A stretch of 64,000 nt of DNA, from contig NZ_DASRXZ010000124.1 in NCBI RefSeq assembly GCF_035687345.1, positions 110 to 64,109 of the forward strand, read 5' to 3'. Both the position numbers and the translations under genes were made by a program. Under the pieces are notes generated by a model. It was given only the letters and a program-made list of their open reading frames with translations, searched no databases and was not told where the DNA came from. The DNA comes from Microbacterium sp. (lineage in GTDB: Bacteria; Actinomycetota; Actinomycetes; Actinomycetales; Microbacteriaceae). Of the stretch, positions 44,812 to 46,854 are shown piece by piece. Every line of letters starts with the position of its first letter. The stretch's first letter is position 1.

Positions 44812-44889
44812 GCCGGATCAGGACATCTGGCGGGAGCAGGACACTCCCCGTCGAGTGCTCCTGCTCCCGCCAGATGTCCTGATCCCGGC
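44812..44889. repeat. Palindromic MITE/REP-like element, copy 2 (about 35-bp stem)
   Basis: GCCGGATCAGGACATCTGGCGGGAGCAGGACACTC ... GAGTGCTCCTGCTCCCGCCAGATGTCCTGATCCCGGC. Confidence 0.8.
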
Positions 44890-44935
44890 GGGTGGCGGGG
44901 CGGCCGATCCTGCCATCGTGCGGCAGGATGACCCT

Positions 44936-45496
44936 GTGCACATCGCCCGCCCCGAGACCTTCATCAGCATCGACGTCGAGACGGCGGGCCCGAACCCGGA
45001 AGAGTACTCCCTGCTGTCGATCGGCGCCTGCGTCGTCGACGACCCTGACATGGCGTTCTACGTCGAGCTGAAGCCGGTGTCGGAAGCGGTCGACGCCGAG
45101 GCGATCGCCGTGAGTGGTCTGTCGATCGAGCGACTGAGCGTCGAGGGCGTCGAGCCGGCCGAGGCGATGCGCCGGTTCGACGAATGGATCGCAGATGCGA
45201 CGCCCCCGGGGCGCACGCCCGTGTTCACCGCGTTCAACGCGCCGTTCGACTGGATGTTCGTCGACACGTACTTCCGCCGGCACCTCGGGCGCAACCCGTT
45301 CGGGCACTCGGCGCTCGACATCAAGGCGTACTACATGGGCCTGGCGGGCAGCTCGTGGGCCGACACGAGCATGCGCGTGCTGTCGCCGCTCTACCTGGAC
45401 GGGCGTGATCTGTCGCACAATGCCCTTGGGGACGCGCGCGATCAAGCCGAGATGTTTCGGCGGATGCGGGGGACCGCGCGCCGCGGATCCGAGTGA
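44936..45496 (+). CDS. DEDDh 3'-5' exonuclease
   Basis: ExoI IDVET, ExoII FNAPFD, ExoIII HNALGD; start trimmed to GTG 44936. Confidence 0.88.
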   Translation: MHIARPETFISIDVETAGPNPEEYSLLSIGACVVDDPDMAFYVELKPVSEAVDAEAIAVSGLSIERLSVEGVEPAEAMRRFDEWIADATPPGRTPVFTAFNAPFDWMFVDTYFRRHLGRNPFGHSALDIKAYYMGLAGSSWADTSMRVLSPLYLDGRDLSHNALGDARDQAEMFRRMRGTARRGSE

Positions 45497-45519
45497 CGCC
45501 GCCGTCAGAGGAGCACGCC

Positions 45520-46854
45520 ATGGCCGTCGTGGACCACACCGCCGAGCTGCAGAGGATCATCGAGTCCGCGAGGCGCCTCGGCGTCGAGATGGACGAGGAG
45601 GAGAGCATCCGGTGGCTCGCGGCGATCGCCGCGGATGCGACGGACAACGCGCTCGAAGTCGACCTTGACAGCGGCACGTACGGCTACCGTCCGACGATGC
45701 TCGACTTCAGCCCGAAGGACATCGCGCGCTTCCGCCGCATCGGCGAGATCGTCGAGGTGAGGGGCGAAGGCGCCGAGAGCGCGCTCGCGCTGTCGGGCTC
45801 GGCGGCGCAGTCGAAGATCCAGACCTACCCGGGCGATGCCGACTACTTCCAGCGCCTCAACATCAAGGCGGACACGCGCGAAGAGGCGTGCGCGATCATG
45901 GCGCGACTGCTCCGCGAGCACGTGGTCGAGCGCCATCAGGGGCCGTCCTTCCAGTTCCTCGAGGCCAAGTTCGGCACGCATCAGGTCGAGGGCACGGTAC
46001 GCGGCGCGCCCGTTCGCAGGGGCAGCCCGGTCTCGTGGACGTTCGCCGAGGTCGAGGCCGGCGTGCAGGTCGTCGAGCGCGCGGATGCCGAGCCCCTCGA
46101 GCTGCGATGGGAGGAGGTCGCCCTCGATCCCGGCTGGTGCAAGCTCGACTGGGTCGTCACCGACCCGGAGCGCGGCGGGCTCTCGAACGCGAGCAACGTC
46201 ATCGACGTCACGTGGGAGGCGCCGGACGGAAGCATCGTCGCGCTCGACGGCTACCTGGACGCGTACTTCCAGGAGATCTACCTCGACGCGGCATCCGTTC
46301 CCACCTTCGCGAAGGTGGCGCAGTTCGTCAGCGCCGATGCGCTCGACGAGTACGTCGCGGCGCTCGAGGGCGAGGTGCGCAAGTACCTCACGTACGACCT
46401 GAACTACGGCAAGGCCGCGAAGCGCATGTACAACGTGTTCCGGCTGTCGGGGCGCCACATGGACGCGGCGTTCGTGCGCGAGCTGTTCGACGAGCCCGCG
46501 ACGACGCTGTATCAGGTGTGGTCGCTCATCCGCACGCTCGACAACGCGACGCAGGAGGGGTCGTCGATTCCGATCGAGCAGGTTCAGGACCAGGCCGACG
46601 CCCTCGTGCTGCAGATCGTGGAGACGCTCGAGGGAGATGCCGAATCGGAGCTCGTCGCGGCGATGCTGCGCCTTCGCCGCACCCTCGAGGGGCAGAAGAG
46701 CGGCGAGGCGCGGTCTGCGGAGGTCGCTGCCGCCCAGGCGCTCGTCGTGAATCTCGTGAACACGTTCTACCGTGAGCGCCTCATGCTCATGCCGACCATC
46801 GCGGAGTACATCGAGCGCATCCAGGCGGAAGCGGCGCCGGGCGACGAGCACTGA
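45520..46854 (+). CDS. Unknown 444-aa protein, candidate Pol-beta superfamily nucleotidyltransferase
   Basis: AGAGGAG RBS before ATG 45520; LSGS-x11-DADY motif and later KLDW. Confidence 0.6.
   Translation: MAVVDHTAELQRIIESARRLGVEMDEEESIRWLAAIAADATDNALEVDLDSGTYGYRPTMLDFSPKDIARFRRIGEIVEVRGEGAESALALSGSAAQSKIQTYPGDADYFQRLNIKADTREEACAIMARLLREHVVERHQGPSFQFLEAKFGTHQVEGTVRGAPVRRGSPVSWTFAEVEAGVQVVERADAEPLELRWEEVALDPGWCKLDWVVTDPERGGLSNASNVIDVTWEAPDGSIVALDGYLDAYFQEIYLDAASVPTFAKVAQFVSADALDEYVAALEGEVRKYLTYDLNYGKAAKRMYNVFRLSGRHMDAAFVRELFDEPATTLYQVWSLIRTLDNATQEGSSIPIEQVQDQADALVLQIVETLEGDAESELVAAMLRLRRTLEGQKSGEARSAEVAAAQALVVNLVNTFYRERLMLMPTIAEYIERIQAEAAPGDEH

What the first reader, a model, noticed from the sequence alone, without database searches (positions are those of the whole stretch)
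45520..46854. Unannotated 444-aa protein with a Pol-beta nucleotidyltransferase active-site signature
Seen: LALSGSAAQSKIQTYPGDADYF fits the hG[GS]x9-13Dh[DE]h consensus of the Pol-beta NTase superfamily (GS at 45796, DAD at 45835). A plausible third carboxylate follows in WCKLDWVV (46141), then a helical C-terminal region (YGKAAKRMYNVFRL). It has a clear RBS and no TM or signal peptide. It does not resemble the families I recognise (CCA/poly(A) polymerase, GlnD, MNT toxins, CD-NTases, aminoglycoside NTases). The FLEAKFG / SWT..EV..G / KLD / K..KR spacing reminds me of uncharacterised NTases seen in giant viruses, but that is unverified recall. Inference: a divergent, possibly undescribed NTase family.
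Basis: partly seen in the sequence, partly recalled or inferred. Interest (0 to 1): 0.82.

Follow-up and report, generated by a model that had tools for sequence, protein, structure and literature searches.

The report
Orphan nucleotidyltransferase paired with Cap18-like exonuclease
The 444-aa gene encodes a real, never-annotated nucleotide-joining enzyme whose only structural relatives are giant-virus and virophage proteins, and it forms a conserved two-gene unit with an exonuclease of the type that cuts 2'-5' nucleotide bonds in bacterial cGAS-like immunity, which points to an undescribed make-and-break pathway for a nucleotide product.

Summary
The ORF (45520-46854, +, 444 aa) and its GS...DxD motif are there as described. 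The motif alone is no better than chance. Near-invariance across a large family and a confident AlphaFold model (pLDDT 89) make the Pol-beta nucleotidyltransferase (NTase) reading solid. No Pfam, NCBIfam, PADLOC or PHROG model hits it, and profile comparison with CD-NTases is negative. The proposed third carboxylate (KLD, D210) is the least conserved candidate; E148, D229 and D243 are better.

The gene directly upstream is a DEDDh exonuclease of the CBASS Cap18/Exo clade (PADLOC 8e-68; PDB 7T2S 3e-47; about 50% identical to exonucleases inside real CBASS operons). A preprint reports these as 2'-5'-specific phosphodiesterases. The pair is conserved in 61 of 80 fetched loci from Actinomycetota and Chloroflexota, is fused in two lineages, has no conserved third gene, and is absent from plasmids and phages.

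Best reading (about 0.5): a synthase/hydrolase pair for a nucleotide or oligonucleotide product, possibly 2'-5'-linked. This is untested biochemically and I found no paper describing it.

The parts
44918..45496 (+). Cap18/Exo-like DEDDh exonuclease gene, the upstream partner. The longest ORF starts at GTG 44855, but that codon lies inside a repeat hairpin. In-frame GTG 44918 or GTG 44936 are the likelier starts. Stop TGA at 45494-45496.
   Evidence: PADLOC PDLC00753 'Effector/Exonuclease' E 8.1e-68, against Pfam RNase_T at only 1.2e-9. PDB 7T2S (E. coli upec-117 Cap18) E 3.4e-47, next PDB hit 3e-4. About 50% identical to exonucleases inside annotated CBASS operons. D9, E11, P15, V55, N97, D101, H157 and D162 (VcExo numbering) are all present.
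45497..45519 (+). 23-nt spacer between the two genes, with GGAG at 45510-45513
   Evidence: Read directly from the sequence. The gap between the aligned ends of the two genes is a few tens to about 190 nt in most relatives (up to about 400), and 4-nt overlaps occur in distant ones.
45520..46854 (+). 444-aa Mg662-like nucleotidyltransferase (P0001)
   Evidence: AlphaFold2 pLDDT 89.4, pTM 0.87. Foldseek top hits 4XUL, 4AMS and 4AMQ plus virophage and giant-virus ORFans. Family of at least 5746 proteins in the 90% database and 530 clusters at 50% identity.
45520..45759 (+). N-terminal extension of about 80 aa, mostly helical (H6-19, H26-41, a small hairpin, H65-78), with near-invariant W32, G55 and R72
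   Evidence: Secondary structure of the model; conservation. Function unknown.
45772..46269 (+). NTase core, residues 85-250: beta1 (85-91), G93-S94, short helix, beta2 with D106/D108, helix 120-137, beta3 with E148, then further strands carrying D210, D229 and D243
   Evidence: The order alpha-beta-[GS]-alpha-beta[DxD]-alpha-beta[E] in the model matches the minimal Pol-beta NTase topology. That topology is established knowledge, not tested by superposition here.
45796..45801 (+). G93-S94 (GS motif)
   Evidence: G in 33/35 and S in 30/35 cluster representatives
45835..45843 (+). D106-A107-D108 (metal-binding DxD)
   Evidence: D106 30/35 and D108 30/35; nearly invariant in alignment A1
45961..45963 (+). 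E148, the topologically expected third carboxylate (first strand after the helix that follows DxD)
   Evidence: E/D in 28/35 representatives and E in 68/68 genome loci. The position is inferred from secondary-structure order; distances were not measured.
46147..46149 (+).
   Evidence: D in only 22/35 representatives
46204..46260 (+). Acidic cluster D229, D243, D247 (with W232, Q251): alternative third carboxylate or substrate contacts
   Evidence: D229 32/35, D243 33/35, D247 32/35
46288..46830 (+). C-terminal all-helical lobe (residues 257-437) with the basic motif K298, K301, R302, Y304, N305, R308 (46411-46443) and FDEP 323-326
   Evidence: R308 35/35, R302 34/35, K298 32/35; helices in the model. 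A triphosphate-binding role is inferred by analogy with other two-lobed NTases.

Best explanation
The 444-aa protein is a catalytically competent Pol-beta-fold NTase of the Mg662/virophage fold family. It works together with the upstream Cap18-like DEDDh exonuclease as a writer/eraser pair.

Proposed mechanism. The NTase uses the G93-S94 loop and D106/D108, plus a third acidic residue (most likely E148 or D229), to bind two metal ions and an NTP. The basic patch of the helical lobe (K298, R302, R308) holds the triphosphate. The enzyme joins nucleotides into a di- or oligonucleotide product, possibly 2'-5'-linked and possibly cyclic. The exonuclease hydrolyses that product or a released linear intermediate. 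This sets a threshold or turnover rate, as reported for Exo with bacterial cGAS.

The unit behaves like a chromosomal, slowly evolving accessory module rather than a mobile defence island, and its receptor or target is not encoded next to it.

Shown here: the fold, motif conservation, exonuclease family membership, gene linkage, fusions and distribution. Inferred: activity, product, linkage type and the physiological role.
For: Fold: confident model. Its only strong structural matches are NTases solved with GTP bound (4XUL, 4AMS, 4AMQ) and their viral relatives. The next-best matches are DncV, CD-NTases and MiD51, all weak.

Active site: GS and DxD are nearly invariant across 50%-identity clusters.

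Partner: the exonuclease belongs to the Cap18 clade. Of six plasmid homologues examined, five sit in real type II or type III CBASS operons. Cap18/Exo enzymes are reported to cut 2'-5' dinucleotide intermediates and 2-5A but not DNA or RNA (bioRxiv 10.1101/2025.03.04.641389).

Linkage: the exonuclease is directly upstream in all 15 Microbacteriaceae loci and in 61 of 80 loci from the scan of species-representative genomes, which span Actinomycetota and Chloroflexota. It is also coupled to an NTase only 38% identical to this one. Two in-frame Exo-NTase fusions exist. No third gene is conserved.

The genome has no SMODS CD-NTase, so this NTase is the exonuclease's only conserved partner.

Not mobile: no NTase match in 72,556 plasmids, 50,697 phages or IMG/VR. 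In Anaerolineales the pair is syntenic between genes that read as dnaG/rpoD and glyQS. NTase phylogeny follows phylum.
Against: No biochemistry exists for this family, and I found no paper describing Mg662's activity.

2'-5' specificity is extrapolated from three proteobacterial CBASS enzymes in one preprint. The NTase-linked exonucleases differ systematically at VcExo position 120 (His in 24/27, against Phe/Ile in CBASS) and at position 165 (Asp against Tyr/Phe).

At least one NTase sub-lineage has lost the exonuclease. In 6 of 7 such genomes none was found at E <= 1e-20. So the exonuclease is dispensable and may not act on the NTase product.

No receptor or effector was identified. The AlphaFold model of the natural fusion gives pTM 0.67 with a disordered linker, so a fixed interface is not supported.

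Distant family members sit in unrelated contexts: glycan-binding fusions and a biosynthetic-looking cluster.
Confidence: 0.5

Rival explanations
1. RNA (or DNA) 3'-end tailing and trimming pair. The NTase adds untemplated nucleotides to an RNA or oligonucleotide 3' end, like poly(A), CCA or TUTase enzymes, and the DEDDh exonuclease trims them, giving a housekeeping RNA-quality or maturation module.
For: Pol-beta NTases with a helical second lobe are often terminal transferases (established knowledge). DEDDh enzymes such as RNase T trim RNA 3' ends, and weak matches to those families exist. The context is housekeeping and the pair evolves slowly.
Against: The exonuclease is specifically Cap18-like (E 3e-47, against 3e-4 for RNase T and PolC exonucleases). 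One tested member of that clade (SmExo) showed no activity on ssDNA, dsDNA, RNA or hybrids. No fold match to PAP, CCA or TUTase enzymes appears among the top Foldseek hits. The pair is present in only 8% of sampled Microbacteriaceae and 22% of sampled Anaerolineales, which is odd for core RNA processing.
Confidence: 0.17
2. A minimal CBASS-like anti-phage system. The NTase is a phage-sensing signal synthase from a non-CD-NTase family, the exonuclease is its safety threshold, and the effector is encoded elsewhere or is the NTase's own extra domains.
For: The closest homologues of the exonuclease live in CBASS operons. Distribution is patchy and the pair is absent from the sampled genomes of the same genus. 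The fold relatives are viral.
Against: No effector is conserved nearby. There is no PADLOC hit for the NTase, no plasmid, phage or viral-contig copies, one copy in this genome, and neighbours that read as housekeeping genes (proline utilisation and a LacI-family regulator here; dnaG/rpoD and glyQS in Anaerolineales; only the LacI gene was checked with a family search). Amino-acid identity across phyla is 53-60% and the tree follows phylum, which is unlike fast-evolving defence genes.
Confidence: 0.13
3. Nucleotidylylation of a small molecule or protein (adenylyl- or guanylyl-transfer to a metabolite, antibiotic, glycan or protein), with the exonuclease functionally unrelated or removing the mark.
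For: Many Pol-beta NTases modify small molecules or proteins (aminoglycoside NTases, GlnE/GlnD; established knowledge). Distant members are fused to glycan-binding modules (AbfB, FBA, lectin) or lie in a biosynthetic-looking cluster. Some lineages lack the exonuclease.
Against: Tight and ancient linkage to a phosphodiesterase-type exonuclease, plus two fusions, argues for a shared phosphodiester substrate. There is no fold match to aminoglycoside or GlnE-type NTases among the top hits.
Confidence: 0.12
4. Inactive NTase-fold scaffold or nucleotide sensor, a MiD51-like pseudo-enzyme that binds but does not transfer nucleotides.
For: MiD51 and MiD49 (nucleotide-binding, catalytically inactive NTase folds) appear among the weak Foldseek hits. 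A few family representatives have lost GS or DxD.
Against: GS and both Asp residues are kept in 30-33 of 35 divergent clusters and in close relatives. This is the pattern of a working active site.
Confidence: 0.05

Closest known systems
Megavirus chilensis Mg662 and its mimivirus homologue (PDB 4AMS, 4XUL with GTP, 4AMQ: 'A Megaviridae ORFan gene encodes a new nucleotidyl transferase'), with virophage and giant-virus relatives (Zamilon V6BPH6, Sputnik V21-like, YSLV5, mavirus, Pithovirus 'nucleotidyl transferase')
   Same: Overall two-lobed NTase fold. Foldseek probability 1.0, E 1.6e-5 to 4e-5 and TM 0.41-0.57 against the PDB entries; E down to 2e-14 and TM up to 0.68 against predicted viral structures. 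Similar size (340-440 aa).
   Different: Only 10-15% sequence identity, and no sequence or profile match. This one is cellular rather than viral and is paired with a Cap18-like exonuclease. Mg662's activity and biology are unpublished as far as the paper library shows.
CBASS CD-NTase plus Cap18/Exo (E. coli upec-117 CdnC-Cap18, PDB 7T2S; S. marcescens and V. cholerae cGAS-Exo)
   Same: An NTase encoded with an exonuclease of the same clade (47-52% identity). The functional logic may be the same: synthase plus 2'-5' phosphodiesterase as a threshold.
   Different: The synthase is not a CD-NTase: no SMODS hit, hhalign probability below 1%, and a Foldseek match to DncV of only E 0.037 with TM 0.16. 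There is no effector, no Cap2/Cap3 and no HORMA/TRIP13. The pair is chromosomal, non-mobile and slowly evolving. The exonuclease has His in place of Phe/Ile at position 120.
Eukaryotic OAS with 2'-5' phosphodiesterases (PDE12, 2'-PDE)
   Same: Conceptually, a Pol-beta-fold synthase of 2'-5'-linked oligonucleotides plus a dedicated degrading enzyme. CBASS Exo cleaves 2-5A in vitro.
   Different: There is no detectable homology to OAS, the degrading enzyme is from a different fold family, and no RNase L-like receptor is present. A 2'-5' product here is purely inferred.

Membership tests
Pol-beta nucleotidyltransferase superfamily | hG[GS] loop after beta1 | tested here: met
   ALALSGS with G93 33/35 and S94 30/35. 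The residue before G is Ser rather than hydrophobic.
Pol-beta nucleotidyltransferase superfamily | [DE]h[DE]h on beta2, 9-13 residues after GS | tested here: met
   D106-A-D108-Y, 11 residues after S94, at the start of strand 106-116. Each Asp is kept in 30/35 representatives.
Pol-beta nucleotidyltransferase superfamily | Third carboxylate on a neighbouring strand, clustered with the DxD | tested here: inconclusive
Candidates are E148 (E/D 28/35), D229 (32/35) and D243 (33/35).
Pol-beta nucleotidyltransferase superfamily | alpha-beta-alpha-beta-alpha-beta core fold | tested here: met
   Order of elements in the pLDDT 89 model. All strong Foldseek hits are NTases.
Mg662 / virophage V21-like NTase fold family | Global structural similarity to 4AMS, 4XUL and 4AMQ | tested here: met
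   Probability 1.0, E 1.6e-5, TM 0.41-0.57 over 385-428 columns. 15 BFVD hits with E < 1e-3.
Mg662 / virophage V21-like NTase fold family | Detectable sequence homology | tested here: not met
   phmmer and profile hmmsearch against PDB sequences give no hit to these chains at E <= 10. Identity in the Foldseek alignments is 10-15%.
CD-NTase (cGAS/DncV-like, SMODS) | Match to SMODS/CD-NTase sequence models | tested here: not met
   No Pfam hit for any of 33 family members. No PADLOC cyclase hit. hhalign against two CD-NTase alignments gives probability 0.1-0.4%.
CD-NTase (cGAS/DncV-like, SMODS) | Structural match to CD-NTase, cGAS or OAS | tested here: inconclusive
   DncV E 0.037, probability 0.25, TM 0.16. 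DwCdnB and ClCdnE have E 0.2-0.6. These are second-tier hits only.
CBASS system | Cyclase plus an adjacent effector gene responsive to a cyclic oligonucleotide | tested here: not met
   No conserved third gene across 14 + 80 loci. No SMODS gene in the genome.
Cap18 / CBASS-associated Exo (the upstream gene) | Sequence membership and DEDDh catalytic residues | tested here: met
   PDLC00753 8e-68; 7T2S 3.4e-47. D9, E11, D101, H157, D162 and N97 are invariant. CBASS exonucleases form one clade (99/94) inside or beside the NTase-linked ones.
Cap18 / CBASS-associated Exo (the upstream gene) | Residues reported to shape 2'-5' selectivity (P15, V55, F120 of VcExo) | tested here: inconclusive
   P15 and V55 are kept. 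Position 120 is His in 24/27 NTase-linked enzymes, against Phe/Ile in CBASS ones (residue roles).
Cap18 / CBASS-associated Exo (the upstream gene) | 2'-5' phosphodiesterase activity | not testable with these tools
   Needs an enzyme assay.

The most novel reading that the evidence does not exclude
This is a cellular branch of the Mg662/virophage NTase fold family. It synthesises a 2'-5'-linked nucleotide messenger for ordinary, non-immune physiology in Actinomycetota and Chloroflexota, with a dedicated Cap18-type phosphodiesterase as its eraser. CBASS would then have recruited its Cap18 accessory exonuclease from this older module rather than the reverse. That would make it a third, independent synthase family for 2'-5' nucleotide signalling beside OAS and cGAS/CD-NTases.
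Probability: 0.25. Interest if true: 0.88.

Novelty: new variant of a known kind. Interest (0 to 1): 0.72.

Why it matters
If the pair makes and clears a nucleotide product, it defines a new synthase family present in at least 539 species genomes with no annotation at all. It would give a first functional handle on the giant-virus and virophage Mg662/V21 ORFans. It would also show that the Cap18 2'-5' phosphodiesterase has a life outside CBASS. The hypothesis is directly testable with two small soluble proteins and standard nucleotide assays.

Tried and rejected
- Family libraries for the NTase (Pfam, NCBIfam, PADLOC, PHROGs; also all 33 alignment members against Pfam) gave nothing.
- PDB sequence and profile searches gave only noise: HAD hydrolase and designed helical proteins.
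- hhalign against CD-NTase alignments was negative.
- NTase searches of plasmids, phages and IMG/VR gave nothing.
- I looked for a conserved third gene or effector in 14 + 80 loci. Only lineage-specific synteny with ordinary metabolic or housekeeping genes turned up.
- Empty-site test in same-genus genomes: the region downstream of the proline-utilisation gene is not syntenic, so neither insertion nor deletion could be shown.
- Composition: the pair is 68-70% GC against 67-77% in the flanks, with no foreign signal.
- Rfam scan of the locus: only sub-threshold microRNA-hairpin artefacts on the repeat palindrome, and no riboswitch. No sigma-70-like promoter.
- AlphaFold of the natural fusion gave pTM 0.67, which is inconclusive for an interface. 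A first alignment for that job (A2) was misaligned and discarded.
- Literature on Mg662, 4AMS, L544 and virophage V21: no functional paper found.
- Model coordinates are not exposed by the tools, so active-site distances and a superposition on 4XUL could not be computed.
Full report
**Observation.** The ORF at 45520-46854 (+) is open for 444 codons. GGAG lies 6 nt before the ATG.

The short motif by itself is weak evidence. The residue before the glycine is Ser, so the strict hG[GS]x9-13Dh[DE]h pattern does not match here. That strict pattern also has four unrelated matches in the window's six-frame translation. Conservation and fold are what make the motif meaningful.

**Family.** No Pfam, NCBIfam, PADLOC or PHROG model matches. 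None of 33 diverse members hits Pfam. PDB sequence and profile searches return only noise.

The family is nevertheless large. There are 5746 hits among the 8000 scored candidates in the 90%-clustered database, all unnamed or 'hypothetical'. An exhaustive HMMER scan finds 530 clusters at 50% identity. At least 539 species-representative genomes carry a copy.

Among 35 divergent full-length representatives, conservation is as follows:
- G93 33/35, S94 30/35, D106 30/35, D108 30/35
- E148 as E/D 28/35
- D229 32/35, D243 33/35, D247 32/35
- K298 32/35, R302 34/35, R308 35/35

**Fold.** An AlphaFold2 model built from a 33-sequence alignment is confident (pLDDT 89.4, pTM 0.87). The element order is helix 65-78, strand 85-91, GS, short helix, strand 106-116 (DxD), helix 120-137, strand 144-153 (E148). 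This is the minimal Pol-beta NTase topology. It is followed by further strands and an all-helical C-terminal lobe (residues 257-437).

Foldseek against the PDB gives three strong hits: Megavirus chilensis Mg662 (4XUL with GTP, and 4AMS) and 4AMQ. These entries are titled 'A Megaviridae ORFan gene encodes a new nucleotidyl transferase'. E is 1.6e-5 to 4e-5, probability 1.0 and TM 0.41-0.57. The next tier is weak: DncV (E 0.037), MiD51 and two CD-NTases.

Against predicted viral structures, 15 proteins match at E < 1e-3. These are Zamilon, a Sputnik V21-like protein, Yellowstone and Qinghai Lake virophages, mavirus, and proteins of Mimivirus, Pithovirus, Sylvanvirus, Tupanvirus and Klosneuvirus. 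The best has E 2e-14 and TM reaches 0.68.

Profile-profile comparison with two CD-NTase alignments is negative, with probability below 1%. The protein should not be filed as a CD-NTase.

**The partner gene.** The gene directly upstream ends at 45496, 23 nt before the ATG. It is a DEDDh exonuclease. It matches PADLOC's CBASS 'Effector/Exonuclease' model at 8e-68, against only 1e-9 for Pfam RNase_T. [quoted passage not shown]

Its plasmid-borne homologues are about 50% identical. Five of the six I inspected sit in annotated CBASS operons: type III with HORMA/TRIP13-like genes in Bradyrhizobium (two plasmids), Mesorhizobium and Acinetobacter schindleri, and type II with SAVED, E1/E2 and JAB in Pseudomonas.

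A preprint (10.1101/2025.03.04.641389) reports the biochemistry of these Exo enzymes:
- S. marcescens Exo was inactive on DNA and RNA.
- All three homologues tested selectively hydrolyse 2'-5'-linked linear dinucleotide intermediates of bacterial and human cGAS.
- Exo also cleaved 2'-5' oligoadenylate.
- This sets an activation threshold for signalling.

Numbered from window 44948, the window's enzyme is collinear with VcExo. It keeps D9, E11, P15, V55, N97, D101, H157 and D162. Position 120, a stacking Phe in VcExo, is His in 24 of 27 NTase-linked enzymes but Phe or Ile in CBASS ones. Position 165 also differs systematically. Clade membership is therefore firm, but 2'-5' specificity is only plausible.

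**Linkage.**
- The exonuclease is directly upstream on the same strand in all 15 loci found in the window's family.
- It is also upstream in 61 of the 80 best loci from the scan of species-representative genomes. These include Chloroflexota at 53-60% NTase identity.
- An NTase only 38% identical to this one still has a translationally coupled Cap18-like exonuclease, itself 46% identical to the window's.
- Two independent in-frame Exo-NTase fusions exist: P0102 (656 aa) and P0271 (663 aa, on a 72-kb contig).
- No third gene is conserved. Neighbours are lineage-specific and look metabolic or housekeeping. By my reading of the sequences, they are dnaG, rpoD and glyQS in Anaerolineales, and an aminotransferase and an ABC-transporter ATPase in some Microbacteriaceae. 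Here they are a proline-utilisation (PutA-like) gene by eye and a LacI-family regulator confirmed by Pfam.
- The window's genome has no SMODS cyclase and only one copy each of the NTase and the exonuclease.

**Distribution and evolution.** The NTase occurs in 16 of 201 sampled genomes of the window's family, in 9 of 101 genera, but in none of the other four sampled genomes of its own genus. It occurs in 33 of 151 Anaerolineales.

The NTase has no copy in 72,556 plasmids, 50,697 phages or IMG/VR. The pair shows no compositional anomaly.

In the NTase tree, Actinomycetota form one clade (SH-aLRT 100) separate from Chloroflexota. The tree needs only 4 label changes, against 23.5 for shuffled labels. 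The window's protein is sister to a Microbacteriaceae MAG.

In the exonuclease tree, CBASS-linked enzymes form one supported clade (99/94) lying among the NTase-linked ones. The outgroup branch is very long, so the direction of recruitment is unsettled.

In six of seven genomes whose NTase lacks an adjacent exonuclease, none was found at E <= 1e-20 anywhere in the assembly (these are MAGs, so incompleteness is a caveat). The exonuclease therefore looks like a dispensable modulator, as in CBASS, where about 4% of operons have one.

**Interpretation.** The evidence shows an intact NTase active site in an Mg662-like fold, co-inherited and occasionally fused with a Cap18-clade phosphodiesterase, in a non-mobile and slowly evolving chromosomal unit.

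The best-supported mechanism is a writer/eraser pair acting on a nucleotide or oligonucleotide product (confidence about 0.5). A 2'-5' linkage is an attractive but inferred detail. The rivals are an RNA-end tailing and trimming pair, a minimal defence system with an unlinked effector, nucleotidylylation of a non-nucleotide acceptor, and a pseudo-enzyme.

The AlphaFold model of the natural fusion folds both domains well (pLDDT 87.7). Its pTM is 0.67 and its linker is disordered, which neither supports nor excludes a fixed interface.

**Novelty.** The paper library holds nothing on this pair, on Mg662's function or on non-CBASS Cap18 homologues. Earlier AI notes of this scan reached the same reading for Chloroflexota and Acidimicrobiia windows. 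I consulted them only after forming mine, and they are not independent evidence.

This window and session add:
- an Actinomycetota/Microbacteriaceae case that is sporadic within its genus
- the two fusions
- the two trees
- the negative profile test against CD-NTases
- the lineage that has lost the exonuclease
- the His-for-Phe difference at exonuclease position 120

Noticed in passing
window 44815-44885: Perfect 27-nt inverted repeat with a 17-nt loop, between the stop of the proline-utilisation gene and the exonuclease gene. Arms with 3 or fewer mismatches recur at about 10 places on 8 contigs of the genome (0 for the reversed control), so this is a dispersed REP- or MITE-like palindrome. 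It overlaps the longest-ORF start (GTG 44855) of the exonuclease, which argues for a later start codon. Rfam reports only sub-threshold microRNA-hairpin artefacts on it.
   Followed up: partly
P0272-P0275: Cap18-like exonuclease domains also occur fused to other modules: PAS plus a histidine-kinase ATPase domain (P0274, P0275), a HAD hydrolase (P0273) and a peptidase S9/S15 (P0272). This hints that the exonuclease family is used as a module in signalling proteins outside CBASS.
   Followed up: no
P0227 (L138:693-4568) and P0181 (L139:4001-7204): Distant members of the NTase family (31-34% identity) are C-terminal domains of large bacterial proteins. One has AbfB, F-box-associated (glycan-binding), C-type lectin and PLAT modules and lies next to a TonB-dependent receptor. 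The other has a beta-propeller and sits in a cluster with an AMP-binding/carrier protein, PLD, carbamoyltransferase, glycosyltransferase and P450 genes.
   Followed up: partly
L061, L065, L067, L072, L076, L078, L094 (genomes G498-G503, G347): In a group of Chloroflexota/Armatimonadota genomes, most of them close together in the NTase tree, the NTase has no adjacent exonuclease. In 6 of 7 genomes no Cap18-like exonuclease was found at E <= 1e-20 anywhere in the assembly.
   Followed up: partly
phage records LR756500.1, LR756501.1, PV764938.1: Only jumbo phages of more than 460 kb carry weak relatives (31-39% identity) of the Cap18-like exonuclease. No phage carries the NTase.
   Followed up: no
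L136 (Acinetobacter pittii plasmid pApiA45Pc): A Cap18-like exonuclease stands alone beside an IS element and plasmid partition genes, with no CBASS genes within 5 kb. It is nearly identical in the tree to the exonuclease of a complete Acinetobacter schindleri CBASS operon, so it is probably a remnant.
   Followed up: no
L037 (contig of a MAG labelled Phycisphaerales) and L076/L107 (Armatimonadetes): NTase sequences from MAGs labelled Planctomycetota and Armatimonadota nest inside the Actinomycetota and Chloroflexota clades respectively. This is either mis-binned contigs or rare transfers.
   Followed up: no
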